From a virus (lineage: Duplodnaviria; Heunggongvirae; Uroviricota; Caudoviricetes), in IMG/VR virus record IMGVR_UViG_3300031248_000001: a DNA stretch of 64,000 bases; one strand, given 5' to 3'. Below the pieces are notes generated by a model. The model was given only the letters and a program-made list of their open reading frames with translations. It was not told the origin of the DNA and made no database searches. This document shows positions 17,178 through 56,748 of this stretch, piece by piece. A program made the position numbers and the translations under genes. Each line of letters opens with the position of its first letter. Positions within the stretch are counted from its first letter, which is position 1.

Positions 17178-17210
17178 AATCCCCCGGCAATCCCCCGGCA
17201 ATCCCCCCGA
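17178..17210. repeat. tandem 11-bp direct repeat (aatcccccggc x ~3) in non-coding region
   Basis: Sequence ccaatcccccggcaatcccccggcaatccccccg, read directly. Confidence 0.6.
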
Positions 17211-17226
17211 TGCGTGGGGGATGCTC

Positions 17227-17646: not shown

Positions 17647-17722
17647 CCTACCCCTCCTCCCCTCCCTTAACCTTCCCCCACCGCCGCCCGCAGCCCCGCC
17701 ACCGCGTCCGATACCGGCACAG

Positions 17723-18336: not shown

Positions 18337-18383
18337 CGGCTCTTTCTCCTCTTCGTCTCCCGGCGGCGGGGGGGGGCTAGAAC

Positions 18384-19268
18384 CTACTCCTTCGTCATCA
18401 GTGATCGCACGTCAACGATGTTGCCGCCGCTAGAGCCGACCACAGGCAGTTTGCCGTCCCACTTCTCGATCCACTCGCGAGCCAGCACCTTTGCCCCGCC
18501 CTGACTATTGAGCGCTGCCGCCCGCACGCGATGTGATTCAGCCTCGCCCTTCGCCTTAGCGATGGCGGTCTCGGCTTCCATCTTGGCCTTCGATAGCACG
18601 TACCGCTGCTTTTCGCTTTCCTGCTGGGCGACCTGCTTTTGCTCGATGGCCTTGTTGAACTCGTCGGAGAAGTCGAAGTTGGTGAGGCTTACGCCGCCGG
18701 GCTCGACCGCGATGTTGTAGACGGCGAGGCGCTGGGTAAGGCTCGTGTCCACAGACGCTTTGACCTGCTCGCGGTTGCGGATCAGTTCCTCAGCGGTGTA
18801 GCGGCTCACGACCGCCTTTAGTGTTTCCTGCACGGCGGGTTGGATCACGCGGGCATCGTAGCCAATGCCGACCGTCTTATAGAGCGCCCCCACCTGCGCC
18901 GGGTCCAGATGGAAGTTGATCGCTACGTCAGTGTGGACGATCTGCAGGTCCTTGCTCGCGGCCTGTGCCTTGGCGTCGGAACGCTGCGTGCGAACCTCCA
19001 TGCGTTCTACGCCCTGCATAACCGGCATGATGAAGTGCGCCCCTTCCGAAAGCACCCCCTTGACCGCCCCGAACTGCAGCAGCACGCCGCGATGGCCCGC
19101 CGGGATGCCGACGTAACTCGCCAGCGGTATCCCGATGAGTAGCAGTGCCACGCCGCCCGCTGCGAGGCCGCCCTTGAGCCTCCGGTAGTGCTGACCGTCG
19201 ATCTCCTGCGGGAACGCGATGCCCGCCACGACCAGTAAGACCCCTGCCACCATCAACAGTATGCCCAT
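18384..19268 (-). CDS. SPFH/band-7 (prohibitin/HflC-like) membrane protein
   Basis: N-terminal TM helices followed by a PHB domain (…HFIMPVMQGVERMEVRTQRSD…TAEELIRNREQVKASV…) and a coiled-coil C-terminus. AAAGGA precedes the ATG. Confidence 0.85.
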   Translation of the reverse strand: MGILLMVAGVLLVVAGIAFPQEIDGQHYRRLKGGLAAGGVALLLIGIPLASYVGIPAGHRGVLLQFGAVKGVLSEGAHFIMPVMQGVERMEVRTQRSDAKAQAASKDLQIVHTDVAINFHLDPAQVGALYKTVGIGYDARVIQPAVQETLKAVVSRYTAEELIRNREQVKASVDTSLTQRLAVYNIAVEPGGVSLTNFDFSDEFNKAIEQKQVAQQESEKQRYVLSKAKMEAETAIAKAKGEAESHRVRAAALNSQGGAKVLAREWIEKWDGKLPVVGSSGGNIVDVRSLMTKE

Positions 19269-19321
19269 CGTGTTTCCTTTCGGTATCGTCTAAATCTCTC
19301 GTAGTCAGTATAGCCGCAGTA

Positions 19322-19351
19322 TTGACAGGTCGTCAAGTCCCGCGCTATACT
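19322..19351 (+). promoter_or_regulatory. sigma-70-like promoter (TTGACA-18 bp-TATACT) for the early-left RHH gene
   Basis: Consensus -35/-10 hexamers read directly. GGAGAAG site and ATG at 19374 lie downstream. Sits in the divergent intergenic region opposite the SPFH gene. Confidence 0.5.
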
Positions 19352-23660: not shown

Positions 23661-24121
23661 CCTCAAAAGTAGAAGTCACTACTCGAATCATCCCCGGCGT
23701 GAACAGGCGCGGCGTGCTTGCCGAACAGCAGGGGGAACGGTTCATCTGCCCGGAGTGTGGCCGAACGATAACCGCTCCTCCGGTGGCAGTATTCTGGTGC
23801 CTGTGCGACGGCCGGTTCTGGCATCATGCCCGCTTCGATGGTGCTTTCACTGCACACATCCCGTTTGAGAAGCAGCAGGTCGATGTTGTCATAGCGGCCC
23901 TTTCGGATGCAGCCGAACGGCTCCGGGCGGACCTCGGATACTTTCACTGCCCACCGGATGCCACACCCGAGGCGCGTGAATGGGAAAACACGGCTCGCGC
24001 CCACCTGGGAGCCGTCGAGCGGTTGCAGGCGCAGATTGCGGAACAGATGCAACAGGCTACGGTGCAGGCTTATGAGCGCTGGCGAGAGTTCGGCGGTTGT
24101 GCGAAGGACCCCCGCCCATGA
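23657..24121 (+). CDS. zinc-ribbon protein
   Basis: CPECGRT…CLCDGRFWHH. Confidence 0.45.
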   Translation: MTSKVEVTTRIIPGVNRRGVLAEQQGERFICPECGRTITAPPVAVFWCLCDGRFWHHARFDGAFTAHIPFEKQQVDVVIAALSDAAERLRADLGYFHCPPDATPEAREWENTARAHLGAVERLQAQIAEQMQQATVQAYERWREFGGCAKDPRP

Positions 24122-24795
24122 CCACCACGCCGATTGAGAAGCTAGCCGGACGCGAATTGGATGCGGCCGTCCATGCCGAGGTGTTGGGCCAGTGCCCGCA
24201 CTTCATCGAGTTCGACCCGACCGTCTCTGATGAAGAGTTGTTTTCCCTCGACTACACCCCGAAACGCTGCCGGGACTGCCACAAGCCCTTCAGCGGCCTG
24301 ATGTTCACGGCGGGCTTACCAGCCTGCCCGGACTACAGCACATCCCTCGACGCCTGCGCGGCCGTCATAGACCACCTGCACCAAACCGGGTGGGCAGTGT
24401 TAGCCTACCGCCCGCCCGCCCATCACTCCAAGGACCCAAACGACCCGGTGTGTTGGTCGGTGAGCCTTGGCATAGCGGGCGAAGACGGGATGCGGATGCC
24501 GGTGATACGGAGATCTCTGGCGGAAGCCGTGTGTGTGGCCGCGCTGGCTGCCGTACGTGGGGGGGGAAGCCGATGCCTGAAGAAGAACACTGGACCTGCG
24601 AGCGCTGCCACCCCATCCCGGCCGCTGACCGTCATCCAATCCTGGCCGTGCAGCGACTTCGCCAGCAGATCGGCGAGTGTTCGATACACGGCCGGGTCTG
24701 GCTGCGGTGGGTGCGGGCGGGGGAGACGCTGGCTGTGGCCCGGTCGCCCGAGGCGGGGGAGGGAGAAGCGCCGTGACGGAACAGCAACGGGTTGA
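24118..24795 (+). CDS. phage ABA-sandwich-like domain protein (3' end uncertain; G8 tract at ~24556)
   Basis: …PDYSTSLDACAAVIDHLHQTGWAVLAY…VCWSVSLG… resembles the paralog at 51248. Downstream translation deteriorates after the G-run. Confidence 0.4.
   Translation: MTTTPIEKLAGRELDAAVHAEVLGQCPHFIEFDPTVSDEELFSLDYTPKRCRDCHKPFSGLMFTAGLPACPDYSTSLDACAAVIDHLHQTGWAVLAYRPPAHHSKDPNDPVCWSVSLGIAGEDGMRMPVIRRSLAEAVCVAALAAVRGGGSRCLKKNTGPASAATPSRPLTVIQSWPCSDFASRSASVRYTAGSGCGGCGRGRRWLWPGRPRRGREKRRDGTATG
24573..24776 (+). CDS. small Cys-rich protein (alternative frame)
   Basis: MPEEEHWTCERCHPIPAADRH…. Confidence 0.3.
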   Translation: MPEEEHWTCERCHPIPAADRHPILAVQRLRQQIGECSIHGRVWLRWVRAGETLAVARSPEAGEGEAP

Positions 24796-25155: not shown

Positions 25156-26658
25156 TTAAACCCGCCACACGATCTCCAGGTCGTACCGCCCGCGCTCCGG
25201 GTAGGTCGTCAGTCGGATTCGCTCGATCAGCGCCGCGCACGCTTCCTGCCGCGCCAGCGGGTCCGGACCCGCCCCTAGCGCTTCTCTGACCGCCCGCGCC
25301 AATTCCGCCCGCTCCAGCCCCCGCTCCTCCGGTTCCTCTCCCTCTAGCGCCGCCCAGCGCTCCGTCAACAGGGCTTGCTCCGCCTGCACCTCCGCGAGCT
25401 GCCGGTCCAACTCCGCCTCCGTAATGACGCCGCGCCGGTAAAGGGACAGGACCCGCTCTCGTTCCCCGGACTTCGCGTCGATCCGCGCCCGCAGCACCTC
25501 GCGCTCCCTCGCCCGCTCCGCTTCCTGCACCCGCCGACTTTCCGCCTGCCCCGCCAGGCTGGCGTCCACCGCCTCCTCCGTCCGCAGCCACGCCTCGACT
25601 TCCTGCCAGACCGCCTCCTCGATCCGTTCCGCGGCCACCAGCTTCCCCGCGCATTTCGGCCGGTAGCGCCAGCCGTGGCACATATAATAATGGTAGCCCG
25701 AGGTTTGCGGCCAGCCGTGGTAGCGCCGACCGCAGGCGCCGCAGACGAGCAGGCCCCGGAGCAGATAGATGCGTTCGTTCGGACGGGTGCGCGGGCTCCG
25801 GTTCCGCACGAGCACGGCCTGGACCGCCGCCCAGGTCCGGTCATCCACGAGCGCCGGGCACGCCTGCTCTACACCTCTCCGCAGGCGCACCCCCTTGTAC
25901 GTGGTATTCCGGAGAATCTGCCGCACCGTGTTCGGCTGCCAGCGCCCGGAGTAGGGGCGGCCGGTGCGGTAGTGGGTGACGGCACGACCCGCCCAGGCCG
26001 TGGGGACGGCGAGCGCGTTGAGGTAGTCGGCGAGCTTGATGCAGCTCCAGCCCTGGGCCGCCAACTCGAACAGCCCCCGGACGATCCGAGCCTCCTCCTC
26101 GCAAGGCACGATATAGGAGCCGGTCTCCCGCACCTCCACTGCATACCCGTAAGGGGGCCGCGCGCCACCCATCCAGCGTGCCGGCTCCGCGTGCGCCCGG
26201 TGCATCCCTGCCCGGACCCGCTCCGCTATCGAGTCGCGCTCCCAGGCGGAGACGACGGCCAGGAAGCCGATCATCGCCCGGCCACTCGGAGAGGTGGAGT
26301 CGAAAGATTCCGTCACGGAGACGACCGCGCAGCCTGCCTCCGCCAGCGCGTGGATCGCGTTATGCGTCACGCGGATGTCGCGCCCGAGCCGGTCCAACCG
26401 ATACAGATAGACGGTGGTGATGCGGCCGGCACGGGCGGCGGCCAGGAGCGCCGCGCCGCCAGGTCGTCGTTCGAGCGGGATGGTGCCGGAGATTCCGTCA
26501 TCGAGGAACGTCTCCGCAAAGGTGAGCCCGCGCAGGGTGGCGTAGCGGCGGGCTTCGTCTATCTGCGTGTTGATGGTCTGGCGTTCGGCCTGCTCCGTGC
26601 TGGAGACACGGGCATAGAGCGCGTCACTCCCCCCGCCAGACCCGCACGGCCCGCTCAT
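25156..26658 (-). CDS. large serine recombinase (phage integrase)
   Basis: N-terminal resolvase domain (ALYARVSSTEQ…RLDRLGRD), recombinase domain, Cys-rich zinc ribbon and coiled-coil C-terminus; 500 aa. Confidence 0.9.
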   Translation of the reverse strand: MSGPCGSGGGSDALYARVSSTEQAERQTINTQIDEARRYATLRGLTFAETFLDDGISGTIPLERRPGGAALLAAARAGRITTVYLYRLDRLGRDIRVTHNAIHALAEAGCAVVSVTESFDSTSPSGRAMIGFLAVVSAWERDSIAERVRAGMHRAHAEPARWMGGARPPYGYAVEVRETGSYIVPCEEEARIVRGLFELAAQGWSCIKLADYLNALAVPTAWAGRAVTHYRTGRPYSGRWQPNTVRQILRNTTYKGVRLRRGVEQACPALVDDRTWAAVQAVLVRNRSPRTRPNERIYLLRGLLVCGACGRRYHGWPQTSGYHYYMCHGWRYRPKCAGKLVAAERIEEAVWQEVEAWLRTEEAVDASLAGQAESRRVQEAERAREREVLRARIDAKSGERERVLSLYRRGVITEAELDRQLAEVQAEQALLTERWAALEGEEPEERGLERAELARAVREALGAGPDPLARQEACAALIERIRLTTYPERGRYDLEIVWRV

Positions 26659-26887
26659 CCTCCGCCAGCAATCGCTCCGCCCAGCGCACGGCCGGCGGGT
26701 CCGGTTCGCGTATCAGGAGCAGCACCGGCGCCCTTCCGTGGTAGATCGCCCGCGCCTCCAGCGCCCGGCACTCCAGCACCCGCAGCGTTACTGCTTCCAT
26801 TGCCGCGCCCTCCTGATAAACGGGAGGTCAGGCAAGGGGCCGCTGGGGTCCTGCATCGAATCGGCGGATTTCGTTCCATCTTTCGAT

Positions 26888-27388
26888 CTACTCCGCCATC
26901 TTCTGCCGCCGCTGTTCCGTCCGAAGAATCCGCACGGCGCGGTTCAGGATCTCCAGGTCGGAAGGGGTCAGGTCGTCGTCGCCGGTGCGCTGCTCGACCT
27001 TCAGGTGTTCAAGGTCGGCGTCGTATTCGAGGGGTTCGCGGGTGGCGGCGTCTAGGATCGCGGCGGCGGGGTCCTGGCCGATCTGGCGGAGCGCTTCGCG
27101 GGCTGCGGCTTCAGCGATAGCTTGGCGTTCGTCCACAGGGGCAGGGCCACCGTAGCCAGCTAGCGCCAGCCATTCGTCCCGGTCCAGGCTGTATGCCTGG
27201 ATCAGCCGCTCTATGAACTCGCGGCTAGGTCGTTCGCCTCGAAGAATCTGACCAATCCGCCCGCCGGTATATCCCAGCCTGCGCCCTACGTCACCTTGCG
27301 CTTCACCTGCGACCAATTCACGGAACCGGCGGCTAAACCCGGAGAGCGGTGGGCCTGGCATAGTAACCACTTCTGTAAGGACACTCAT
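26888..27388 (-). CDS. XRE-family HTH repressor (cI-like)
   Basis: HTH QGDVGRRLGYTGGRIGQILRGERPS. Divergent from a cro-like gene and adjacent to the integrase. Confidence 0.65.
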   Translation of the reverse strand: MSVLTEVVTMPGPPLSGFSRRFRELVAGEAQGDVGRRLGYTGGRIGQILRGERPSREFIERLIQAYSLDRDEWLALAGYGGPAPVDERQAIAEAAAREALRQIGQDPAAAILDAATREPLEYDADLEHLKVEQRTGDDDLTPSDLEILNRAVRILRTEQRRQKMAE

Positions 27389-27498
27389 ACTTACGCAGAA
27401 CGGCAGTAGCAGGAAAAAGTTTCCTGCAAAACCTGCAACCTTAGAAGGACTTCTGCCGTCAATTGCAGTAGAAGTAAGAGACGCGGCTTCTTGTAGCA
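27389..27498. promoter_or_regulatory. divergent cI/cro-type control region with candidate operator repeats
   Basis: Repeats GCAGTAG x2, CCTGCAA x2 and inverted ACGGCAG…CTGCCGT. Lower GC than the flanks. Confidence 0.4.
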
Positions 27499-27747
27499 AT
27501 GACAAACGGACAGATACCAGAGACCGGCCCGGAGCTCCGGGCACTGCGGATCGAGGGAGAGCTTTCCCTGGTGACGGTCGCCGAGGGGCTGGGCGTGAAC
27601 CGCACGATGCTCTCTAACTGGGAGCGCGGGATGGCGATGCCCGCTGACGTGCCCGCCCGTTACCGCAAGCTCGTGCAGGAGTTGACAGCGGCGCGGGCAG
27701 CGAAGGTGCGCGAGCGGTGCCGCAAGCCGCGGAGGGCGGAGGCGTGA
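27499..27747 (+). CDS. XRE-family HTH protein (Cro-like)
   Basis: LSLVTVAEGLGVNRTMLSNWERG. Confidence 0.65.
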   Translation: MTNGQIPETGPELRALRIEGELSLVTVAEGLGVNRTMLSNWERGMAMPADVPARYRKLVQELTAARAAKVRERCRKPRRAEA

Positions 27748-28889
27748 GCCGGAAGCACGCCAATCAGCCCGGTCTGCTCGAAGTCCCGCCCGCCTGGTCG
27801 GAGAAGTGGCAGGGCATGCCCGAGTTCGATCAGCCGAACCAGATGCCGTGGCAGTCGATCAAGGTCCACTTCCGCAACGCCGAGGACCGGCAGGCGTTTG
27901 CAGACCTTATCGGCCAGCCGGTCTACTCGCGGACGAAATGCGTCTGGTTCCCGAAGGCTGAGATCGGGCGCATCGCGGATAAGCGATACCGCGCTCGTTC
28001 CGAAGTCCTCCCGCAATACCCGGTCTACGTCATCTCGAAAGGGCGCTGGAAATTCCGACATACCGCGAAGGCGCTTGAGGCTATGAGAGTGCCTTACCGC
28101 ATTGTAGTTGAGCCGCAAGAGTTCGATCTTTACGCCGAGCACATCCCTGCCGTGAAGATCCTGACCCTGCCCTTTAGCAACCTCGGCCAGGGGTCGATCC
28201 CGGCTCGGAATTGGGTGTGGGAGCACGCGGTATCCGAAGGAGCCGAGCGTCACTGGATATTAGATGACAACATCTATGCCTTCTTCCGTCTCAACCGTAA
28301 TCTAAGAGTTAAGTGCGAGACCGGAGCGACCTTTCGAGCGGCTGAAGAGTTCACCGACCGCTATGAGAATGTAGGGCTGTCTGGCTTCAACTACAAGATG
28401 TTTGCCAAGCGGAAAGACGACATCCCGCCCTACGTCCTGAACACCCGCATCTACTCCTGCATCCTCATTCGTAACGACATCCCGTTTCGCTGGCGAGGCC
28501 GGTACAACGAGGACACGGACCTCTCTCTTCGCGTGCTTAAAAGCGGTCTTTGCACGATCTTGTTCAACGCCTTCCTTGCCGACAAGGCAACGACGATGAC
28601 GACAAAGGGCGGGAACACGGACGAGCTTTATCAGGACGACGGGCGGCTCAAGATGGCCGAGTCTCTCGCGGAGCAGCACCCTGACCTCGTGAAGATCACC
28701 GAGAAGTGGGGCCGACCGCAGCATAGCGTCAATTACCACGTGTTTCGGCACAACCGGCTGAAGCGGAAGCCGGGCGTTGAGCCGAGCGAGGGCGTTGACG
28801 ACTTCGGGATGAGCCTGGAGTTCATCGCTCCGAACGGAAACGGGCACGAGCCGGTCTGTGACGGCCTCTTCGCGGAGGCCCAACTGTGA
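27717..28889 (+). CDS. GT-A-fold-like putative glycosyltransferase (function uncertain), first gene of the early-right operon
   Basis: GTG start overlaps the cro-like stop. Conserved-looking blocks YVISKGRW…RVPYRIVVEP…WILDDNIYAF…GFNYKMFAKR. No TM segment. Confidence 0.4.
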   Translation: MPQAAEGGGVSRKHANQPGLLEVPPAWSEKWQGMPEFDQPNQMPWQSIKVHFRNAEDRQAFADLIGQPVYSRTKCVWFPKAEIGRIADKRYRARSEVLPQYPVYVISKGRWKFRHTAKALEAMRVPYRIVVEPQEFDLYAEHIPAVKILTLPFSNLGQGSIPARNWVWEHAVSEGAERHWILDDNIYAFFRLNRNLRVKCETGATFRAAEEFTDRYENVGLSGFNYKMFAKRKDDIPPYVLNTRIYSCILIRNDIPFRWRGRYNEDTDLSLRVLKSGLCTILFNAFLADKATTMTTKGGNTDELYQDDGRLKMAESLAEQHPDLVKITEKWGRPQHSVNYHVFRHNRLKRKPGVEPSEGVDDFGMSLEFIAPNGNGHEPVCDGLFAEAQL

Positions 28890-40828: not shown

Positions 40829-41971
40829 GTGATGATGCACTGCGGCAGCCTCTTCTCGGGCGGCGGGTTAGCGGACCTGGGCCTGGTCGCCGCTGGCTAT
40901 ACGCCTGTGTTCGGCGTCGAGTATGACGCGGCGATAGCGGAATGCTACGCGGCGAACGTCGGCCCGCACGTCACGGTCGGCCGCGTGGAGGAGCAGGACT
41001 ATCGGGGTTGGACGGATCTGGACCTGGCCTGGGCCTCCCCGTCCTGCGTGCGGGCCAGCGTAGCGAATGCGAACGCGGGCGAGACGGAAGAGGACCGGAA
41101 GGCGGCGGCGGCGGTGTGCCGGTCCCTGTGGGATGCGCGGCCGGCCCGCTTCGTGTTGGAGAACGTATCCGGATACCGGGCCTGGGAGAGCTTTCGGATG
41201 ATCGTGCGGACCTTGCTGGAGTTAGGCTATGCCGTGGATTGGGGGCTCCACAACGCGGCCGACTACGGCGTGCCCCAGACCCGCCGCCGCTTGATCCTCC
41301 GAGCCCTCCGTGACGCGCGCTACGTGCCGCCGCTGTGCCCGACGTATGACGAGCGGCCGATGAGCGCGGGCCTGTTCGAAGAGGTGTCGCCGCTCTTGCC
41401 CTGGCAGGGCTGGTACGCGGCGGTGGAGGACCTGCTGGACGGGCTGCCCGAGAGCCGGTTTGCCGCCTGGCAGCTCGCGCGTCTTCCCGAGAGCTTGGGG
41501 ACCTACCTGGTCGGTGGGAGCAACACGAGCGACGAACAGGCCGCGCCTGGGGTAGGGGTGAGCGGGCAGGCGGAGCCTGCCCGCTGCGTGGCGGGGAACT
41601 CGGATCGGTGGCGGGCGGTGTTGGTGGACAATGGCAACCCTAACCGAAACGGCGGGATAGTCCACACCGCAAATCAACCGTGTGTCACTGTCTTGGCTCA
41701 GGCTGATCGCGTTCCATTACGTGCCTTCCTCGTAGAAGACCGGCGCGCCTCCGGGTTCGCCAACGAGACGGTGCGTGCTTCCGATACGCCGCCCCGCGCC
41801 TGGCTCGAACAGGGCCGCGTCGTGCAAATGAACGCCCGCTGCCTGGCGCGGTTCCAGTCCGTGCCCGACAGCTACGCGCTGCCCGAGAAGAACAAGACCG
41901 CTTACAGAGTTATCGGCAATGGGGTCCCGCCGTTGTTTAGCCAGCGGATTGCGGAGAGCCTACACCGATGA
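40829..41971 (+). CDS. DNA (cytosine-5)-methyltransferase
   Basis: Motif I LFSGGGLADLG, PSC-type motif IV, ENV (FVLENVSGY), QTRRRLIL, C-terminal GNGVPPL. Confidence 0.8.
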   Translation: MMMHCGSLFSGGGLADLGLVAAGYTPVFGVEYDAAIAECYAANVGPHVTVGRVEEQDYRGWTDLDLAWASPSCVRASVANANAGETEEDRKAAAAVCRSLWDARPARFVLENVSGYRAWESFRMIVRTLLELGYAVDWGLHNAADYGVPQTRRRLILRALRDARYVPPLCPTYDERPMSAGLFEEVSPLLPWQGWYAAVEDLLDGLPESRFAAWQLARLPESLGTYLVGGSNTSDEQAAPGVGVSGQAEPARCVAGNSDRWRAVLVDNGNPNRNGGIVHTANQPCVTVLAQADRVPLRAFLVEDRRASGFANETVRASDTPPRAWLEQGRVVQMNARCLARFQSVPDSYALPEKNKTAYRVIGNGVPPLFSQRIAESLHR

Positions 41972-50892: not shown

Positions 50893-51251
50893 TGATCCCC
50901 CCCGACCGCACCCCCCCCACGCCCGAACCGGAGCCCCAGCCGCCTTCCACCGTCACCACGCCCACGGCCACCTCCCCGAGCCTCTACATCACGTTCGCCG
51001 GGGAAGCGGTCATCATCTGGGGGGTACTGGAGGCGGCCGGCGCGTTCGCTAACTTGCCGCCGCAACTGGAGCCGTGGGTGCTGGGTATCGGAGCCGTGCT
51101 CAAGATTGTGGGCGAGGTGCTGAAACGGAGAGGGACGGTCCACGCGATCCAGAGTGTGGAGCAGGGCACGCGGCTGACGGGCGCAGTAGCGAGTGCGGCG
51201 TTGGAGACGAGTCAGACGGCGGTGAGTATTGCGACGGAGGAAAAGGCGTGA
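50892..51251 (+). CDS. membrane protein
   Basis: Pro-rich N-terminus plus a hydrophobic core. Confidence 0.45.
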   Translation: MIPPDRTPPTPEPEPQPPSTVTTPTATSPSLYITFAGEAVIIWGVLEAAGAFANLPPQLEPWVLGIGAVLKIVGEVLKRRGTVHAIQSVEQGTRLTGAVASAALETSQTAVSIATEEKA

Positions 51252-51628
51252 GCGTCGAAGCCGCTGAGCGAACCGAGGAACTACTGACAGGGCGCGAGAT
51301 GGACGCGCGGATTGCCGCCCTGATAGGTGATACGCAGGACGAGGAAGGCTGGTGGGTGTCGCGGGACGGGTCACGGATCAGCGTGGATGACGGCGGGCCT
51401 CGGCACTACAGCACGGAGATTGCCGAAGCGTGGAAGGTAGTGGAAAAGCTCATACGTGAGGGGCAGGGCGACTTCCACATTGAGCACGTGGGGTCAACGG
51501 ACGGCCAGCACCACGATTGGTGTGCCGGCCGTTTCTGCTTTGACCCGGCAGAGAAGTGGGGGTATGCCGACACGGCTCCCCTCGCGATCTGTCGCGCCGC
51601 TCTGAAAGCCTGCGAGGCCATCCGATGA
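51248..51628 (+). CDS. phage ABA-sandwich-like domain protein (paralog of 24118 gene)
   Basis: …RHYSTEIAEAWKVVEKLIREG…. Confidence 0.4.
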   Translation: MSVEAAERTEELLTGREMDARIAALIGDTQDEEGWWVSRDGSRISVDDGGPRHYSTEIAEAWKVVEKLIREGQGDFHIEHVGSTDGQHHDWCAGRFCFDPAEKWGYADTAPLAICRAALKACEAIR

Positions 51629-51792: not shown

Positions 51793-52296
51793 CTAGCCAG
51801 TCGGCTTGACCGGCCGCCCGCGCGGGTTGCGCGTGAACTGATCCGCATCTTCGGCGCGCACGTAGTAGACCGGCCCTCGCGCTTCCTGCACGCATTCGGC
51901 GGGGAGGCGCTGTTCGCGGATGTAGCGGCGGACGAGGCTCGGGTCGATCCCGAGCCGGGCGGCGGTCTCGGTTACGGTGAGGCGTCCGTTTTTCCAGCGC
52001 TCATACTCCGAGCGAGCGAATGCGCCCGGGGTAACCCGTTCGATAGAGCGATAAAGCGGTCGGTCCTTCCATGCTGTCGGGCCGTTGGGAATCATGGTCG
52101 AGGCGTGTGCGATGCCAGCGGCCCGCGCCTCGGCCAATGTTTCCGGGGGCGCGTTAGTCAGCAGGTAGTCCTGCAAATCGCCTTCTCGATCCCTCGCGGA
52201 ATAAGCTCCGGCCCAATAACCACGCTGGGTCAGGTAGCAGAAGGCGGTATTAGTCGCGGGCTTGGGTATCCACGCCTTGTGAAAGGTTTCGTTCAT
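51793..52296 (-). CDS. protein with C-terminal excisionase/Xis-family HTH
   Basis: RLTVTETAARLGIDPSLVRRYIREQRLPAE…YYVRAED. Confidence 0.45.
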   Translation of the reverse strand: MNETFHKAWIPKPATNTAFCYLTQRGYWAGAYSARDREGDLQDYLLTNAPPETLAEARAAGIAHASTMIPNGPTAWKDRPLYRSIERVTPGAFARSEYERWKNGRLTVTETAARLGIDPSLVRRYIREQRLPAECVQEARGPVYYVRAEDADQFTRNPRGRPVKPTG

Positions 52297-52301
52297 TTGG
52301 C

Positions 52302-52595
52302 TTACCTGCGCATCCACTTCTGGGCTTCGGTCCACTGCGCCGGATCATTGACTACTTCTACTGCCTCGATTTCGGCAGCGTGGGTATCGTAGACGGAGAG
52401 AAGGCGCTCTCGGGCCAGGTCAATCGCCTTGTAGAAGGGGACGCCGGGGTAATCCAGGGCCGCTCCAAGGATGGCCTTGTCGGGGACCCGGTAACGCTTG
52501 CGCTCCGGGCGAACTAGCGTGACGGCGGAGGCCTCTTTAAGCAGCGTGAGCACGTCAGCGTCCGATGCGGTGCGAATGTTCAATCCAGCGTCCAT
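52302..52595 (-). CDS. hypothetical protein
   Basis: ORF upstream of and co-oriented with the HTH gene. Confidence 0.45.
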   Translation of the reverse strand: MDAGLNIRTASDADVLTLLKEASAVTLVRPERKRYRVPDKAILGAALDYPGVPFYKAIDLARERLLSVYDTHAAEIEAVEVVNDPAQWTEAQKWMRR

Positions 52596-52639
52596 CGTCT
52601 CGTCCTTTCGTCGTCGTTCCTGCCTACACCACTATTATC

Positions 52640-52700
52640 CCTAACGCGGGACAAATAGTCAAGCGATCTGGAAAATAAATGTCCTGCGATTTTAGGGAAG
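52640..52700. promoter_or_regulatory. AT-richer promoter region with imperfect inverted repeat (TCCCTAACGCGGGACA…TGTCCTGCGATTTTAGGGA)
   Basis: Read directly; sits upstream of the minus-strand operon at 52595. Confidence 0.35.
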
Positions 52701-52812
52701 GTCCTGTCTCGTGAGCCGGACAGGAATCACCGGCCCCGGCGACGTGGGGTGCCTGTGGTTGATTGTGGTTACGGCGCTGCTGGCGGGGGTGGGGGCCTGG
52801 ATCGGGGGAAGG

Positions 52813-52843
52813 TGAGGGGGCGCCCGCTCCCTTCACCCGGAGC
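52813..52843 (-). terminator. GC-rich hairpin (9-bp perfect stem GCCCGCTCC/GGAGCGGGC) downstream of minus-strand gene 52865-53110
   Basis: Read directly; no clear U-tract. Confidence 0.35.
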
Positions 52844-52864
52844 GGGCGGGGAGAGGACGGAAAG

Positions 52865-53110
52865 TTAGCGTTTGGTTTCGCCGGCAGGCGGACGGCACGC
52901 GACTAGTCGAGCGGCGTAATAAGCCCGCTGTACAAGCAGGGAGTCGTATTTCACGAGGGTCCGCCCGTCATATCCGTTGGGATCGTCCAGCATCACGGCA
53001 TCGGGGTAAGCGCAGGTAACTCGGTAGTTGTGTCCGTCTAGGGTGATGAGGTCTCCCCCTCTGGCGTCGTAGTTCACGTATCCGCCTTCGGTTCTGGTCG
53101 CGGTCTTCAT
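52865..53110 (-). CDS. hypothetical protein (81 aa) downstream of RHH gene
   Basis: ATGA coupling with the RHH gene. Confidence 0.45.
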   Translation of the reverse strand: MKTATRTEGGYVNYDARGGDLITLDGHNYRVTCAYPDAVMLDDPNGYDGRTLVKYDSLLVQRAYYAARLVACRPPAGETKR

Positions 53111-53286
53111 TTCCTCTTCTCCTCATTGCCCCCGGGCTGGGGGGCGGTAGAGCGGCGGTCAAGATACTCGGTCAGCGCGGCGCGGATCACCTCGGACTGA
53201 CCGAGCTGGGTGCGTTCACAGTAGGCCCGGAGGTTTTGATCCAGCACCTCCGGGCATTCGAATTGGATGCGGTTACGCGGCTTCAT
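53107..53286 (-). CDS. ribbon-helix-helix protein (antitoxin/CopG-like)
   Basis: IQFECPEVLDQNLRAYCERTQLGQSEVIRAALTEYL. Confidence 0.5.
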   Translation of the reverse strand: MKPRNRIQFECPEVLDQNLRAYCERTQLGQSEVIRAALTEYLDRRSTAPQPGGNEEKRK

Positions 53287-53402
53287 GCCCTTTCTCTCTG
53301 GAAGGCTGCGCGAACCCAAGAGCGAGCACAGCGGACTTTGCCCTTTAGGGCGTAGTGGGCGGCGATCTTCAGCACGCCGATGTAGGGGAAGTAGCGCTTA
53401 AG
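53283..53402 (-). CDS. tiny basic protein (40 aa)
   Basis: Coupled at both ends (ATGA and ATGCTTAA overlaps). Confidence 0.3.
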   Translation of the reverse strand, partial: LKRYFPYIGVLKIAAHYALKGKVRCARSWVRAAFQRERA

Positions 53403-53622
53403 CATTGGGGTCTCCTTCGATAGAGATGAGCAGGTTGCAGTTGCGGCAGTAGAAGGGCTCAACGGCCGCCTCAGTGAATTGGGAGCGCCGCCCGCAGGCG
53501 TCACAGGCATAGGCGTGCTCCTCGACCTCTGTCACGCCCGCCACGTAACTGAAGGTGCCGATGCCCTGAATCCAGCGGTCGGCGCGGATGTTCTTGATGG
53601 CCTTGGTGATACCGAGATACAT
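53398..53622 (-). CDS. zinc-ribbon protein
   Basis: CDACGRR…CRNCN. Confidence 0.45.
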   Translation of the reverse strand: MYLGITKAIKNIRADRWIQGIGTFSYVAGVTEVEEHAYACDACGRRSQFTEAAVEPFYCRNCNLLISIEGDPNA

Positions 53623-53694
53623 GACGTTGGTCCCTTCTGTCCGTCCACTGTCCTACACCCCTAGTATCGGCGATTGTAGTGACAGTGTCAACCA

Positions 53695-54114
53695 TTGGGC
53701 CGTTGCGCTTTTGTTGAGACTGCTATGCACCTCCTCCACGACCACGCGGCCCGGCAAAACATACAGGACGAAGCGCACGCCCCAGGCCGCGTCGTGGGCG
53801 ATGAGCCGATCCACGCTTGGTTCGAACTCACTTACGCCCAATACCTGACCATCCCGCGCAGCATCCTGGAGGCGATGCCTCAGGAGTGGCAGGCCCGGTT
53901 CGTGCGCTGCCTGGAGGAGTTGGATGAGGCGTTCGATTGGCGCCCGTCCGAGGGCCGTTACTGGGTGCAGTTGAAGGACGCTGACGGGCGGTATGTGGAG
54001 GACCCGCTGCGGGAGTATCGGCATCCGAACCGGGCTTACATCGCGGGGTTGGTGCGGCCGTTGCCGGACGTGGCTTTGGGTGCGGAGGTGGGGGGAGACG
54101 ATGGCGCGGCGTGA
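53695..54114 (+). CDS. hypothetical protein
   Basis: ORF preceding the small terminase. Confidence 0.4.
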   Translation: MGRCAFVETAMHLLHDHAARQNIQDEAHAPGRVVGDEPIHAWFELTYAQYLTIPRSILEAMPQEWQARFVRCLEELDEAFDWRPSEGRYWVQLKDADGRYVEDPLREYRHPNRAYIAGLVRPLPDVALGAEVGGDDGAA

Positions 54115-54547
54115 GTGGTCGGATAGTGAGAAGGCCACGGCGCTCGCGGCCCTGGATGCGAATGGGGGGAACGTCTCCCATACTGCCCGGCAGCTTGGTA
54201 TCCCCCGGATGACCCTCGCGGATTGGGCCGCTGGCCGGGTGACGGACGATGTGACGGAACTCCGTCAAGAGAAAAAAGAGAGCTTGGCAGACGCCTTCGA
54301 AGCGCTGGCCCGCAAGCTCGTGGCGGGGGTTGGAGTGTGGGTCGACCAACGGTTAGAGGAAGGCTGCAACCCGGCGACGGTGGGGACCACGCTCGGTATC
54401 GTAGTGGACAAGATGCAGCTTCTCCGCGGTGACCCCACCCATATCGCCGGGCAGGCTGGTATGCCGCCGCGCCGCCTGGACGGCATCATTGAGCAACTTG
54501 GGGGAGATCGGCGGGAAGAAGAATGCACCCCGCAACCTACGCCTTGA
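54101..54547 (+). CDS. terminase small subunit (putative)
   Basis: N-terminal HTH (GNVSHTARQLGIPRMTLADW). Lies immediately upstream of and overlapping the large terminase gene. Confidence 0.5.
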   Translation: MARREWSDSEKATALAALDANGGNVSHTARQLGIPRMTLADWAAGRVTDDVTELRQEKKESLADAFEALARKLVAGVGVWVDQRLEEGCNPATVGTTLGIVVDKMQLLRGDPTHIAGQAGMPPRRLDGIIEQLGGDRREEECTPQPTP

Positions 54548-56748
54548 ACGAGGAAACACTCCTCGACCTTGCGATCCGGGCAAAGTCACTCCCGTTTGAG
54601 CAGCAGGAACGAATTGCGGTAGAGCTGGAGGCGCTGATCCCGCTGGCCAAGTTCGGCCCACGTTGGCTGCGAGGGACAGCGCCGAAGACCTGGCGCTGGG
54701 AATGGGAATACCAGCAGCGCATCTATCAGGCGTTGGATCGGATCACCCGTGGCGAATGCCGGCGGATGATGCTGTTCGTCCCGCCCCGGCACACCAAGAC
54801 GGAGACGGTCACGGTCCGCTACAGCGCGTGGCGGATAGAGCGTGAGCCGACTGAACGGGTCATCGTCGCCGCTTACAATCAGGACCAAGCGAACCTCTAC
54901 GCACGGAAGATCCGCCGCATTGTGCAGGCGCGGGTGCCGCTGGCGAAGGACTCGAAGCGCGTAGACGAGTGGGAGACCGCGGAAGGCGGGGGGTTGATCG
55001 CCAGAGGCGTTGGCGCGGGCGTAACCGGCCGCGGCGGTAATCTCATCGTCATCGATGACCCGGTGAAGTCACGTGAGGAAGCCGACTCCGACGCCTACCG
55101 GGAACGGTGCTGGGACTGGTATACAAACGACCTGTGGACCCGCCAGGAGCCCGGCTGCGCGATTCTGCTGATCCTGACCCGCTGGCACGAAGACGACCTC
55201 GCCGGTCGGCTCCTGCAAGCGCAGAAGGACGGCGGGGAGTTCGCCGAGCAGTGGGAGGTGTTGAACTTCCCGGCACTCGCGGAAGAGAACGATCCGCTGG
55301 GCAGAGAGCCTGGCGAGGCGCTGTGTCCGGAGCGGTTCGATGAGCACGGCCTGCAGGTAGCGAAGACGGTCCTCGGGCGCAACTTTTACGCGCTCTACCA
55401 GGGGCGACCGCAGGCGGCGGAAGGCGCGATCTTCAAGCAGTCGTGGTTCCGCTACCACACGGAAGAGGGCGCGTTCTACGTCCTGCATCACCCGGATGGG
55501 AAGCAGGAGCGGGTAAGGAAGGCCGACTGCTGGCGGTTCGCTACCGGCGACTTCGCGGCGAGTGAGAAGACGAACGCGGACTGGACGGTGGTGCCCGTGT
55601 GGGCAGTCACTCCGCGCCGACAGCGGTTGCTGCTTGACGTGCTGCGGGAGCGCTGGGAAGGCCCAGAGGCGAAGGGCCTGGTACGGACCGCGTTCACCAA
55701 GCACAACCTTTCCTCGTTCGTGGTGGAACGGAACGGGCTCGCCCTGCCGATGGTGCAAGACCTGCTCCGCGAAGGCTACCCGGTCCGCGGCGTGGTCGTG
55801 CATCGCGATAAGGTAGCGAGAGCACAGGGCAGCGCCGCTTACTACGAGGCGGGCCTGGTCTATCACGCGCAGGGCGCGGCGTGGCTGGATGCGTGGGAAG
55901 CGGAGCACCTGACGTTTCCGAACGGCGCCCACGACGACCAGGTGGATACCGGCTCCCTCGCTGCTGAATCGATTAAGCCCGGTATGGAGATCATCAGCGA
56001 ATTCTACGAACCGCTCCACGTCGCCCACGACCCGCTGGAGATCGACCCCGCCCTCCCGCTCCTCTGCGGCTGGTGCTTCGATCCCTACCCGGCCTGGATC
56101 ATCGGCCAGCTCGACGCGACAGGGGCCGGCCGCGAGGGGACGGGTCAATACCGGGTGCTGGCGTGTGCGGTAGGTGGGCCGGAAGAGGGCGCGTATACGT
56201 TCGCGGAACGTATCCTGCACCTGCTGCGGCGGCAGGGACTCGACCCGGCGGCGCTGGACCTGCGGCATTTCGCGCACCCGCGGCACTGCGGCGTCAAGGG
56301 GCATGCCGGGCGGAATATGGATGCGTGGATGCAGTTGGCGACCGGGGTGCCGGCCGTGGTCGGGTATGATGAGCGGCGGCGACCGGAGAAGAATGGTAGG
56401 GCGGCATTAGGGGTGCGGTTGATCCCTGGGGACCCGGACCGCCACACGCGGGACGAGGCGCTGCGCGGGCGGCTCAAGACGTTGGAGAGAGGGATACCCG
56501 CTTTGGCGGTGGACCCCGGCTGTCGGCCGTTGATCGCGGCGCTTACCGGCGGCTACTGCTGGAAGGTGCAGGTGAGCACGGGGCTGCCGACGGGCGAGGT
56601 GGACCCGAACCCGAGCAGTGCGCTGGTGGAGGCGCTCACCGTGAGTTTGGGCGGGTTGTATGCCGGGGCGCCGCGGCCGGATGAGGATGAGGGCTGGGGG
56701 CCGGTTGGGACGGCGAGTGGGGCCGGTAGACGAAGGGAACGGGTATGA
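54523..56748 (+). CDS. terminase large subunit
   Basis: Motifs FVPPRHTKT, LIVIDDP, TRWHEDDL; 741 aa. Confidence 0.85.
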   Translation: MHPATYALNEETLLDLAIRAKSLPFEQQERIAVELEALIPLAKFGPRWLRGTAPKTWRWEWEYQQRIYQALDRITRGECRRMMLFVPPRHTKTETVTVRYSAWRIEREPTERVIVAAYNQDQANLYARKIRRIVQARVPLAKDSKRVDEWETAEGGGLIARGVGAGVTGRGGNLIVIDDPVKSREEADSDAYRERCWDWYTNDLWTRQEPGCAILLILTRWHEDDLAGRLLQAQKDGGEFAEQWEVLNFPALAEENDPLGREPGEALCPERFDEHGLQVAKTVLGRNFYALYQGRPQAAEGAIFKQSWFRYHTEEGAFYVLHHPDGKQERVRKADCWRFATGDFAASEKTNADWTVVPVWAVTPRRQRLLLDVLRERWEGPEAKGLVRTAFTKHNLSSFVVERNGLALPMVQDLLREGYPVRGVVVHRDKVARAQGSAAYYEAGLVYHAQGAAWLDAWEAEHLTFPNGAHDDQVDTGSLAAESIKPGMEIISEFYEPLHVAHDPLEIDPALPLLCGWCFDPYPAWIIGQLDATGAGREGTGQYRVLACAVGGPEEGAYTFAERILHLLRRQGLDPAALDLRHFAHPRHCGVKGHAGRNMDAWMQLATGVPAVVGYDERRRPEKNGRAALGVRLIPGDPDRHTRDEALRGRLKTLERGIPALAVDPGCRPLIAALTGGYCWKVQVSTGLPTGEVDPNPSSALVEALTVSLGGLYAGAPRPDEDEGWGPVGTASGAGRRRERV

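What the first reader, a model, noticed from the sequence alone, without database searches (positions are those of the whole stretch)
51793..53622. Second opposite-strand module (Zn-ribbon, tiny basic protein, RHH, 81-aa protein; then a 97-aa protein plus a protein with an Xis-like HTH) just upstream of the terminase genes
There are two minus-strand operons with tight coupling (ATGA and ATGCTTAA overlaps). They are separated by an AT-richer region with an imperfect palindrome, and a GC hairpin sits after the first operon. The RHH protein followed by a small unknown protein has toxin-antitoxin-like architecture. The downstream protein has a C-terminal excisionase-family HTH. This could be the recombination directionality factor for the serine integrase or a regulatory or defence module. 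None of the small proteins are recognisable.
Basis: partly seen in the sequence, partly recalled or inferred. Interest (0 to 1): 0.6.

Follow-up and report, generated by a model that had tools for sequence, protein, structure and literature searches.

The report
Self-regulated accessory gene cassettes in phage
Just upstream of the packaging genes of an uncultivated temperate phage sit two small add-on operons, each with its own promoter and DNA-binding regulator and carrying tiny proteins of unknown function; they look like a portable "regulator plus variable cargo" cassette (the layout of phage counter-defence operons), not a toxin-antitoxin pair or an excision factor.

Summary
Six translationally coupled minus-strand ORFs form two operons at 51793-53622, separated by a 269-bp spacer with a GC hairpin. 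Corrections: the RHH protein is 59 aa and the HTH protein 167 aa.

New evidence:
- Each operon is headed by a near-consensus sigma-70 promoter. These are two of only four such sites in the 64-kb window.
- Both promoters share a 17-nt box, GATAMTAGKGGTGTAGG, found nowhere else in the window, and both are bracketed by inverted repeats.
- The module has lower GC than its flanks and is absent from the closest related phage.
- Operon 2 (97 aa + 167 aa) recurs in an unrelated phage contig, again on the opposite strand. The 167-aa protein is a new alpha/beta domain ("X") fused to an Xis/Cox-type HTH_17. Elsewhere the two occur in swapped order or as separate genes.
- Stand-alone homologues of the HTH (64-70 aa) end small operons of varying unannotated cargo. 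In several contigs those operons have a homologous promoter and leader. No integrase lies nearby.

Best reading: autoregulated accessory (moron, acr-aca-like) cassettes. The toxin-antitoxin and excision-factor readings fail most of their tests. Function remains inferred. Interest is moderate.

The parts
53663..53691 (-). Promoter P1 of operon 1: TTGACA-17-GATACT
   Evidence: 10/12 match, one of only four such sites in the window. It sits 41 nt upstream of the ATG of the Zn-ribbon gene.
53646..53687 (-). Inverted repeat CACTGTC-N28-GACAGTG bracketing the -10 and transcription start of P1. Candidate operator.
   Evidence: Read from the sequence. Function is inferred.
53652..53668 (-). Shared box GATACTAGGGGTGTAGG (-10 hexamer plus GTGTAGG)
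   Evidence: the pattern occurs only at P1 and P2, with 0.10 expected. The GTGTA[AG]G box recurs in five of six homologous promoters of other contigs.
53398..53622 (-). Gene 1, 74-aa Zn-ribbon protein (CxxC-X17-CxxC)
   Evidence: Only sub-threshold Zn-ribbon hits. tblastn against phages gave chance hits only.
53283..53405 (-). Gene 2, 40-aa basic protein (pI 11). Overlaps gene 1 by ATGCTTAA.
   Evidence: strong GGAGA ribosome-binding site. No family hits.
53107..53286 (-). Gene 3, 59-aa ribbon-helix-helix protein. Probable (auto)repressor. ATGA overlaps on both sides.
   Evidence: RHH_1 E = 5.5e-6, above the cut-off. PHROG transcriptional repressor and Arc-like families.
52865..53110 (-). Gene 4, 81-aa ORFan, predicted all-beta
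   Evidence: only itself among 5.8 billion clusters; no family. AlphaFold pLDDT 52, unusable.
52821..52848 (-). GC hairpin (10-bp perfect stem, 8-nt loop) after operon 1. Terminator-like, without a U-tract.
   Evidence: I18.: -29 kcal/mol but z = -1.3.
52634..52662 (-). Promoter P2 of operon 2: TTGACT-17-GATAAT
   Evidence: 10/12 match.
52632..52658 (-). Imperfect palindrome CTATTtgTCCC-GCGTT-AGGGAtAATAG spanning the spacer and -10 of P2. Candidate operator.
   Evidence: Read from the sequence. Function is inferred.
52596..52639 (-). -10 box plus conserved leader (GATAATAGTGGTGTAGGCAGGAACGACGACGAAAGG...)
   Evidence: 26 nt at 96% identity to the leader of L023 operon 2, E = 4e-7. Alignments A5 and A6.
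52302..52595 (-). Gene 5, 97-aa soluble protein. Conserved partner of the X-HTH protein.
   Evidence: 43% identity (E = 4e-19) to the 102-aa gene directly upstream of P0128 in L008. No Pfam, PHROG or PDB match.
51988..52296 (-). Gene 6, N-terminal 'domain X' (residues 1 to about 103): b-a-b-b-a + a sandwich
   Evidence: hits P0128 (E = 1.5e-6) and P0157 (E = 7.5e-4). AlphaFold pLDDT 75, pTM 0.65; no specific fold match.
51793..51987 (-). Gene 6, C-terminal Xis/Cox-type HTH_17 winged helix with a GRP tail. Probable operator-binding repressor.
   Evidence: HTH_17; 40-56% identity to many 64-72-aa stand-alone proteins; family profile against 4J2N Xis, E = 3e-7.

Best explanation
The region holds two autonomous accessory ('moron'-type) operons, transcribed by host sigma-70 RNA polymerase. 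They sit at the boundary between the early and late genes of a temperate phage that carries a serine integrase.

Each operon carries its own small DNA-binding protein: the RHH protein in operon 1 and the X-HTH_17 protein in operon 2. I infer that these proteins bind the inverted repeats and the shared GATAMTAGKGGTGTAGG box that overlap the -10 and transcription start, and so shut the promoters down after a burst of expression.

The other products are soluble effector 'cargo': the Zn-ribbon, 40-aa, 81-aa and 97-aa proteins, and possibly domain X itself. I infer that they act on the host. The most likely role is counter-defence or takeover, as with the cargo of acr-aca operons.

Shown here:
- gene structure, promoters and repeats
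- lower GC content and absence from the nearest relative
- conservation of operon 2 as a mobile cassette
- fusion and fission of domain X with the HTH
- the recurring pattern of a conserved HTH_17, often with a related promoter and leader, next to cargo that differs between contigs

Inferred: repression by the RHH and HTH proteins, which protein binds which site, the timing of expression, and the function of the cargo.
For: (1) Promoters. There are 10/12 sigma-70 matches exactly upstream of both operons. They are two of only four such sites in 128 kb of scanned strand. The other two form a divergent pair at the head of the other opposite-strand module.

(2) Shared box. A 17-nt -10-proximal box is unique to P1 and P2. 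Inverted repeats bracket both core promoters.

(3) Accessory nature. GC is 0.58-0.62 across the module against 0.65-0.69 in the flanks, and GC3 is lower than in core genes. The closest TerL relative (63% identity, L004) has an uninterrupted plus-strand gene run upstream of TerS.

(4) Mobile cassette. The 97-aa protein and the domain X + HTH_17 protein recur as adjacent genes in L008. That contig has a different terminase family (Terminase_3) and an HK97-type capsid (Pfam Phage_capsid), and the pair again lies on the strand opposite the structural genes around it.

(5) Domain order. X-HTH in the window, HTH-X in P0128, and X and HTH as separate overlapping genes in L010.

(6) Stand-alone HTH homologues. 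In L011, L012, L023, L024, L026 and L030 they follow runs of small, mostly unannotated genes that differ between contigs, and they end the run in L011, L012, L026 and L030. The promoter region is duplicated within a contig in L012 and L030. No integrase is in reach.

(7) Promoter homology. The promoter and leader align co-linearly across the window, L008, L012, L023 and L024. The window P2 leader matches L023 over 26 nt at 96% identity, E = 4e-7.

(8) Cargo properties. No transmembrane segments; cargo proteins are mildly acidic or neutral. No PADLOC defence hit beyond the HTH itself.

(9) Precedent. Aca repressors bind inverted repeats over the -10, can be RHH proteins (Aca14), and co-regulate adjacent operons (PMC13551039). 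HTH_17 proteins lie next to AcrVA1 homologues (PMC6739104).
Against: - No cargo protein matches a known anti-defence protein, and no anti-defence HMM library was available here.
- Orientation opposite to the lytic operons and parallel to the repressor and integrase genes is also typical of genes expressed in the lysogen, such as protective genes.
- The family is tiny: about eight distinct contigs, all metagenomic, with unknown hosts.
- Operator assignments rest on sequence inspection alone.
- The hairpin after operon 1 lacks a U-tract and is not statistically unusual. Operon 2 has no terminator and abuts a convergent gene.
- The 97-aa protein and domain X are inherited together, which fits a toxin-antitoxin-like pair about as well as a cargo-regulator pair.
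- The RHH protein and the rest of operon 1 have no detected relatives, so for operon 1 the 'conserved regulator, variable cargo' argument rests only on its promoter and leader.
Confidence: 0.45

Rival explanations
1. The cassettes are protective genes expressed from the prophage: toxin-antitoxin or abortive-infection-like pairs, or superinfection exclusion. In this reading the 97-aa protein is a toxin neutralised by domain X of the HTH protein, in toxin-first order as in HigBA or MqsRA. RHH + 81 aa would be a second pair. Both would be autoregulated from P1 and P2.
For: - The operons are transcribed opposite to the lytic operons and in the same direction as the repressor and integrase.
- Genes are tightly coupled and the promoters look autoregulated.
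- The 97-aa protein and domain X co-occur in two unrelated phages.
- A modular regulator, with a DNA-binding domain plus a second domain in either order or split into two genes, resembles modular antitoxins and three-component systems.
- Lower GC and a moron-like insertion.
Against: - No toxin or antitoxin family hit for the 81-aa, 97-aa or domain X sequences in Pfam, NCBIfam, PADLOC, PHROGs or PDB.
- The 81-aa protein has no homologue anywhere, which would be unusual for a toxin family.
- Most family members are HTH-only proteins of 64-70 aa with no room for a neutralising domain. Their cargo differs from contig to contig and includes enzymes.
- There are no membrane proteins to suggest an exclusion function.
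- The RHH tail is only about 15 residues long.
Confidence: 0.22
2. The 167-aa protein with the Xis-like HTH is the recombination directionality factor of the phage's serine integrase, possibly assisted by the 97-aa protein.
For: - The HTH domain is Xis/Cox-type: HTH_17 at the cut-off, and the family profile hits Pukovnik Xis 4J2N at E = 3e-7 and P2 Cox.
- PHROG 'excisionase and transcriptional regulator' at E = 7.5e-4.
- RDFs of serine integrases are diverse, often far from int, and some are small proteins with distant similarity to the phiRv1 Xis (PMC5311408).
- No other recognisable RDF was found among the 23 non-structural proteins outside the module that were scanned.
Against: - TIGR01764 scores below its cut-off, 16.7 against 28.8 bits.
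- The gene lies 25 kb from int. A 58-aa ORF at 26624-26800 overlaps the int start in the classical xis position.
- RDFs of large serine integrases generally have no DNA-binding role.
- Homologues sit at the end of cargo operons with no integrase within 6-8 kb, including inside a structural gene cluster.
- In several contigs the promoter and leader are conserved along with the HTH gene, which points to a transcription factor with its operator.
Confidence: 0.1
3. The RHH and HTH proteins are core regulators of the phage's own programme, for example switching on or insulating the late (packaging) operon that starts 100 bp from P1. On this reading they are not regulators of accessory cargo.
For: - The module sits exactly at the early/late boundary. 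P1 diverges from the first late gene across a 102-bp spacer.
- P2 Cox-type proteins can be developmental switches.
Against: - The closest relative has no such module upstream of TerS.
- Homologous cassettes sit at unrelated positions: inside the head genes in L008, and amid opposite-strand small, mostly unannotated genes in L012.
- The shared box occurs only at P1 and P2 and nowhere else in the window.
Confidence: 0.08

Closest known systems
acr-aca operons (anti-CRISPR genes with an Aca autorepressor, including the RHH-type Aca14)
   Same: - Small unannotated genes are co-transcribed with a small DNA-binding protein from a strong promoter.
- Inverted repeats overlap the -10.
- The regulator family is conserved while the cargo varies between mobile elements.
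- Adjacent operons share a motif.
- Effector and regulator domains can be fused.
(PMC13551039; PMC9638941, listed.)
   Different: - The regulator fold is Xis/Cox-type HTH_17, not one of the described Aca1-13 HTH families, and the family profile gave no PDB match to solved Aca structures.
- No cargo protein is a known Acr.
- No CRISPR or host context is available.
- In the window and in L008 the 97-aa cargo is inherited together with the regulator.
- Activity is untested.
Phage morons (autonomous promoter-gene-terminator insertions, in the sense of Hendrix and Juhala; recalled from general knowledge)
   Same: - Own sigma-70 promoters.
- Inserted between blocks that are contiguous in a relative.
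- Lower GC than the flanks.
- Dispensable-looking ORFans.

   Different: - There are two multigene operons, each with a dedicated regulator, rather than a single gene.
- The terminator is only hairpin-like, with no U-tract.
- The relative used for comparison is distant (63% TerL identity).
Xis/Cox excisionase family (mycobacteriophage Pukovnik Xis 4J2N, P2 Cox 4LHF)
   Same: Winged-helix HTH_17 domain, with a basic GRP tail in the 64-72-aa homologues.
   Different: - The window protein carries an extra 100-aa domain.
- It is not linked to any integrase.
- The phage's integrase is a serine recombinase.
- The TIGR01764 cut-off is not reached.
Type II toxin-antitoxin modules with RHH or HTH antitoxins (ParD/CopG type; toxin-first HigBA and MqsRA)
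   Same: Coupled small genes, a DNA-binding partner, probable autoregulation, and a modular regulator.
   Different: - No toxin superfamily match.
- The 81-aa protein has no relatives.
- The RHH gene is embedded in a four-gene operon.
- Most family regulators lack any neutralising domain.

Membership tests
Type II toxin-antitoxin (RHH antitoxin + 81-aa toxin) | Adjacent, translationally coupled genes, one of which encodes a DNA-binding antitoxin | tested here: met
   ATGA overlap between the RHH and 81-aa genes. RHH_1 at 26.6 bits, above the 20.5 cut-off.
Type II toxin-antitoxin (RHH antitoxin + 81-aa toxin) | The toxin belongs to a recognised toxin superfamily or fold | tested here: not met
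   No hit in Pfam, PHROGs, PADLOC, NCBIfam or PDB. The AlphaFold model has pLDDT 52, so no fold test was possible.
Type II toxin-antitoxin (RHH antitoxin + 81-aa toxin) | The pair recurs across genomes or mobile elements | tested here: not met
   The 81-aa protein has only itself among 5.8 billion clusters. No tblastn hit in phages or plasmids.
Type II toxin-antitoxin (RHH antitoxin + 81-aa toxin) | Growth arrest by the toxin, rescued by the antitoxin | not testable with these tools
   Needs expression assays.
Xis-type excisionase / RDF | Xis/Cox-type winged-helix HTH | tested here: met
   HTH_17 at 27.0 bits, equal to the cut-off of 27. Family profile against 4J2N Xis, E = 3e-7.
Xis-type excisionase / RDF | Reaches the curated cut-off of TIGR01764 ('excisionase family DNA-binding protein') | tested here: not met
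   TIGR01764 scores 16.7 bits against a cut-off of 28.8.
Xis-type excisionase / RDF | Genetic linkage or co-occurrence with its integrase | tested here: not met
   The integrase at 25156-26658 is 25 kb away. No integrase appears in any of the seven homologue contexts. Caveat: four of those contigs are shorter than 2.6 kb.
Xis-type excisionase / RDF | The partner is a tyrosine integrase with arm-type sites (DNA-bending mechanism) | tested here: not met
   The only integrase in the window is a large serine recombinase with Resolvase, Recombinase and Zn_ribbon_recom domains.
Xis-type excisionase / RDF | Binds the integrase and switches directionality | not testable with these tools
   Needs AF-Multimer docking or attL x attR assays.
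acr-aca-type autoregulated counter-defence operon | Small unannotated gene(s) co-transcribed with a small DNA-binding protein | tested here: met
acr-aca-type autoregulated counter-defence operon | Strong promoter with inverted repeats overlapping the core elements | tested here: met
   This is shown at the sequence level only; binding is untested.
acr-aca-type autoregulated counter-defence operon | The regulator is conserved across mobile elements while the neighbouring cargo varies | tested here: met
   Met for the HTH_17 protein. Not examined for the RHH protein.
acr-aca-type autoregulated counter-defence operon | Homology to a described Aca or Acr / anti-defence protein | tested here: inconclusive
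   The HTH profile gave no PDB match to solved Aca structures. No anti-defence HMM library was available, and the Aca14 sequence was not at hand.
acr-aca-type autoregulated counter-defence operon | The cargo inhibits a host defence system | not testable with these tools
   The host is unknown; this needs experiments.
Phage moron | Own promoter | tested here: met
   P1 and P2 are both present.
Phage moron | Own terminator | tested here: inconclusive
   After operon 1 there is a perfect 10-bp hairpin without a U-tract, z = -1.3. No terminator follows operon 2.
Phage moron | Absent at the same position in related phages | tested here: met
   L004 (TerL 63% identity) has no opposite-strand genes upstream of TerS.
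Phage moron | Base composition differs from the flanks | tested here: met
   GC dips to 0.58-0.62 against 0.65-0.69 in the flanks, and GC3 is lower than in core genes.

The most novel reading that the evidence does not exclude
The Xis-fold HTH_17 proteins with a GRP tail, together with their conserved promoter and GTGTARG leader box, define a previously undescribed family of Aca-like master repressors in high-GC uncultivated phages. On this reading the ORFans they control are new counter-defence effectors: the 97-aa protein, domain X, the 81-aa, Zn-ribbon and 40-aa proteins, and the cargo in L008, L011, L012, L023, L024 and L030. Domain X would be an effector or sensor domain that has been fused to the repressor in both orientations. 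The regulator and box could then serve as a guilt-by-association handle for mining anti-defence genes in phages where none are known.
Probability: 0.3. Interest if true: 0.7.

Novelty: new variant of a known kind. Interest (0 to 1): 0.45.

Why it matters
If the reading is right, an excisionase-fold HTH_17 protein here acts as a dedicated repressor of accessory operons, not as a recombination factor. It would then be a warning against annotating every small HTH_17 phage protein as 'excisionase'. The conserved regulator plus promoter and leader box would also give a search handle for new host-directed (probably counter-defence) proteins in a poorly sampled, high-GC group of environmental phages. 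The three arrangements of domain X and the HTH (both fusion orders, and separate genes) give a concrete hypothesis of physical or functional coupling that can be tested with a handful of clones.

Tried and rejected
Searches that found nothing:
- Close-relative scans of IMG/VR with the 180-aa, 81-aa and TerL proteins.
- Alignment-based scans with domain X (A1) in genomes, IMG/VR and metagenomes, and with the 97-aa family (A2) in IMG/VR and metagenomes.
- tblastn of the 97-, 167- and 81-aa proteins against GenBank phages and plasmids. The Zn-ribbon protein gave only chance hits.
- DNA pattern scans for the conserved leader. The 10 IMG/VR hits and the 3 GTDB genome hits were all chance matches in coding sequence or in contigs of unrelated GC content.
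- Rfam on the module.

- The HTH alignment scan of genomes, because the alignment lacked a conserved block.
- AFDB50 fold search, because the library was unavailable.

Structure work:
- The AlphaFold model of the 81-aa protein was too poor to use (pLDDT 52).
- The PDB sequence hit of the 81-aa protein to designed propellers (Ika8) was judged a beta-hairpin repeat artefact.

Other:
- A 'GGACAG' operator idea showed only weak enrichment and was dropped.
- The population-variation (dN/dS) idea failed because all recovered copies of the phage are 100% identical.
- A small-terminase reading of the 167-aa protein was rejected. It rested on one weak PHROG hit (E = 0.085), the gene is on the wrong strand, and a TerS-like HTH_8 gene overlaps TerL.
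Full report
**1. The observation**

The minus strand of 51793-53622 carries six ORFs in two groups. The same six genes were called independently on 100%-identical metagenome contigs: JGI 3300031237, Logan SRR8536200 and SRR8536192.

Operon 1:
- Zn-ribbon protein, 74 aa, 53398-53622.
- Basic 40-aa protein, 53283-53405.
- RHH protein, 59 aa, 53107-53286. Pfam RHH_1 scores above its cut-off.
- 81-aa protein, 52865-53110.
- The genes are joined by one ATGCTTAA overlap and two ATGA overlaps.

A 269-bp spacer follows. It holds a perfect 10-bp GC hairpin 17 nt after the stop codon. The hairpin has no U-tract and is not energetically unusual for this GC content.

Operon 2:
- 97-aa protein, 52302-52595.
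- Five nucleotides later, a 167-aa protein, 51793-52296. Its C-terminus scores exactly at the HTH_17 cut-off.

All six ORFs have Shine-Dalgarno-like sites and GC3 > GC2. None has a transmembrane segment.

**2. Transcription signals**

A consensus scan finds two sigma-70-like promoters in the region, both on the minus strand and each exactly upstream of one operon:
- P1, TTGACA-17-GATACT, 53691..53663.
- P2, TTGACT-17-GATAAT, 52662..52634.

Over the whole window and both strands, only four sites reach 10/12 matches. They are these two and a divergent pair at 19307-19351, which heads the other opposite-strand module, the one with the SPFH/Band-7 gene.

P1 and P2 share a 17-nt box, GATAMTAGKGGTGTAGG, made of the -10 hexamer and the bases around the start site. 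It occurs nowhere else in the window even with three mismatches allowed, with 0.10 expected.

Both core promoters are embedded in inverted repeats:
- P1: CACTGTC-N28-GACAGTG.
- P2: CTATTtgTCCC-GCGTT-AGGGAtAATAG.

This is the classic layout of a promoter controlled by a repressor encoded in its own operon. Binding itself is inferred.

**3. Genome context**

The window is a temperate siphophage-like genome.
- The lysogeny region holds a large serine integrase (25156-26658, minus strand), a CI-like HTH ORF and a divergent Cro-like HTH gene at 26888-27747.
- A long plus-strand early operon follows, with HNH, Erf-like, helicase, replication initiator, C5-methylase and TAGT glycosyltransferase genes.
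- The module comes next.
- The late operon follows, starting 102 bp from P1 with a 129-aa gene, TerS-like HTH_8 and TerL.

GC drops to 0.58-0.62 across the module against 0.65-0.69 beside it.

No GenBank phage or IMG/VR contig is closely related. The nearest TerL relative is 63% identical (L004). It has an unbroken plus-strand run of genes upstream of TerS and no homologue of any module gene. The module is therefore accessory.

**4. Relatives of the module proteins**

The 81-aa protein and the 167/180-aa protein have no homologue other than themselves in the word-indexed 5.8-billion-cluster database.

A full HMMER scan with the 167-aa protein splits it into two parts.
- **C-terminal HTH.** Residues 104-164 are 40-56% identical to many stand-alone proteins of 64-72 aa, most of which end in a GRP motif followed by basic residues. 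A profile of this family finds mycobacteriophage Pukovnik Xis (4J2N, E = 3e-7), P2 Cox and RacA in the PDB. It is an Xis/Cox-type winged helix.
- **N-terminal 'domain X'.** Residues 5-103 match only two proteins. P0128 (179 aa) carries the HTH first and X second. P0157 (125 aa) is X alone.

Genomic context of these relatives:
- In L008, a 63.9-kb contig with Terminase_3, HK97-type capsid (Pfam Phage_capsid) and Mu-F genes, P0128 lies in a four-gene opposite-strand island between the Mu-F and prohead-protease genes. The gene directly upstream of it is 43% identical to the window's 97-aa protein, E = 4e-19.
- In L010, X and a separate HTH_17 gene overlap by ATGA.

So operon 2 is a conserved, mobile two-gene cassette. 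X and the HTH are functionally coupled, since they occur fused in both orders and also split.

**5. The wider pattern**

Contexts of the best stand-alone HTH homologues:

| Locus | Genes preceding the HTH_17 gene |
|---|---|
| L011 | 158 aa, 69 aa |
| L012 | Two tandem operons, each ending in an HTH_17 gene: 67 aa and a 119-aa ParB_N protein, then 112, 74 and 66 aa |
| L023 | Two operons: 77 and 117 aa, then 152 aa |
| L024 | 100 aa, 130 aa, 402-aa PAPS-reductase/DUF3440 protein, 212-aa ParB-like protein |
| L026 | 90 aa |
| L030 | 122, 178 and 106 aa; a canonical terminator follows the HTH_17 gene |

In every case the HTH_17 gene follows a short run of genes that differ between contigs. It ends the run in L011, L012, L026 and L030; a further gene follows it in L023, L024 and L008. 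Most of the cargo has no Pfam or PHROG family. The exceptions are the L024 genes just listed, including a PHROG-only hit for the 130-aa protein, and the ParB_N protein of L012.

Where flanks are available (L008, L012), the island lies opposite to its neighbours. No integrase is within reach.

The promoter and leader regions of these operons align co-linearly with the window's P1 and P2: -35, a TCCCGCGT-like spacer core, -10, ribosome-binding site and ATG. The GTGTA[AG]G box follows the -10 in all but L024. The window P2 leader matches L023's over 26 nt at 96% identity, E = 4e-7. L012 and L030 each carry the promoter region in duplicate, as the window does.

**6. Interpretation**

A regulator conserved together with its promoter, next to cargo that turns over, is the signature used to find acr-aca operons.

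Recent work supports the parallel:
- Aca repressors bind inverted repeats over the -10, can be RHH proteins (Aca14), and often control adjacent operons through a shared motif (PMC13551039).
- HTH_17 proteins have been noted beside AcrVA1 homologues (PMC6739104).
- Acr-Aca fusion proteins exist (AcrIF24, PMC9638941, listed).

I therefore read the region as two autoregulated accessory cassettes. The box shared by P1, P2 and L023 is most likely the site of the HTH_17 protein, because L023 has that protein and no RHH in the 2.3 kb available. The P1-specific repeat may belong to the RHH. The cargo most likely acts on the host, and counter-defence is my first choice.

This last step is inference. 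Orientation parallel to the repressor and integrase genes would equally suit protective genes expressed in the lysogen. The joint inheritance of the 97-aa protein with domain X fits a toxin-first toxin-antitoxin pair about as well.

**7.

RHH + 81 aa as a toxin-antitoxin pair:
- Coupling and the RHH domain are met.
- The putative toxin has no family, no fold and no relatives.
- The pair sits inside a four-gene operon.

RDF:
- The fold is right.
- TIGR01764 is not reached.
- The gene is 25 kb from a serine integrase. RDFs of such integrases generally act without binding DNA.
- Homologues are not linked to integrases.
- A 58-aa ORF overlaps the int start in the canonical xis position.

Neither hypothesis is excluded, and I rate each at or below 0.2.

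**8. Limits**

- The family is small and purely metagenomic.
- The host is unknown. The leader scan of GTDB genomes gave only chance hits.
- Four of the context contigs are shorter than 2.6 kb.
- No anti-defence profile library, multimer prediction or expression data were available.
- Operator assignments and timing of expression are untested.

**Verdict**

This is a real, well-delimited pair of accessory operons with an informative and apparently undescribed regulator/cargo architecture. It is a new variant of a known kind, of moderate interest.

Noticed in passing
window 25156-27747: Canonical lysogeny switch: a large serine integrase (25156-26658, minus strand), a 58-aa ORF (26624-26800, minus strand) overlapping the integrase start in the classical xis position with no family hit, a CI-like HTH ORF (26888 to about 27400, minus strand) and a divergent Cro-like HTH gene (27499-27747, plus strand). 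By position, the 58-aa ORF is a better RDF candidate than the 167-aa protein.
   Followed up: partly
window 27717-28889 and 40829-41971: A TET-associated glycosyltransferase (TAGT, E = 1.9e-47) and a C5 cytosine DNA methylase both lie in the early operon. This suggests that the phage hypermodifies its cytosines (5mC to 5hmC to glycosyl-hmC). No TET/JBP dioxygenase was identified among the proteins scanned.
   Followed up: partly
window 16681-19351: First opposite-strand module, with an SPFH/Band-7 protein (18384-19268) and three small unannotated ORFs. It is headed by a back-to-back pair of near-consensus sigma-70 promoters at 19307-19351. These are the only other sites at 10/12 or better in the window.
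   Followed up: partly
window 53695-54114: The first late gene (129-139 aa) matches only the C-terminal 85-100 positions of PHROG families whose profiles are 178-233 positions long (phrog_3527, E = 8e-20). It looks like a short form of a protein that is usually about twice as long, right next to the insertion point of the module.
   Followed up: no
window 54523-56748 and downstream: TerL is unusually long, 741 aa against about 450-520 aa for most homologues, which cover only about 60% of it. A 273-aa protein with a Cpn10 (GroES-like) domain lies two genes downstream, and the same arrangement is conserved in the 63%-identical relative (L005).
   Followed up: no
window 9370-16542: A single 2390-aa ORF with a strong GC3 signal. 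It is presumably a giant tail or tape-measure-like protein and was not examined.
   Followed up: no
window 24097-24795 and 51250-51628: The phage has two genes with a Phage_ABA_S (ABA sandwich) domain. One directly precedes the module. L024 and L025, from a sister JGI sample, also have an ABA_S gene beside an HTH_17-containing island with different cargo.
   Followed up: partly
L024 3509-6207; L012 4448-4807; L030 2312-2548: ParB_N-like genes recur in or beside the HTH_17 islands. In L024 the ParB-like gene follows a PAPS-reductase/DUF3440 gene, an IbrA/IbrB-like pair (a resemblance recalled from memory). This may hint at DNA-modification or nuclease-type cargo.
   Followed up: no
L012 4100-4207 and 5140-5250; L030 100-213 and 579-693: Promoter and leader regions are duplicated almost verbatim within single contigs, heading successive small operons. 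This parallels the P1/P2 pair in the window and suggests that the cassettes spread or are assembled by promoter-mediated recombination.
   Followed up: partly
L007 9872-10802: A 52%-TerL relative encodes a STAS-domain protein and a sigma-70 region-4 protein just after its terminase gene, and an Acb2/Tad1-hairpin family protein (a known anti-defence fold) among its head genes.
   Followed up: no
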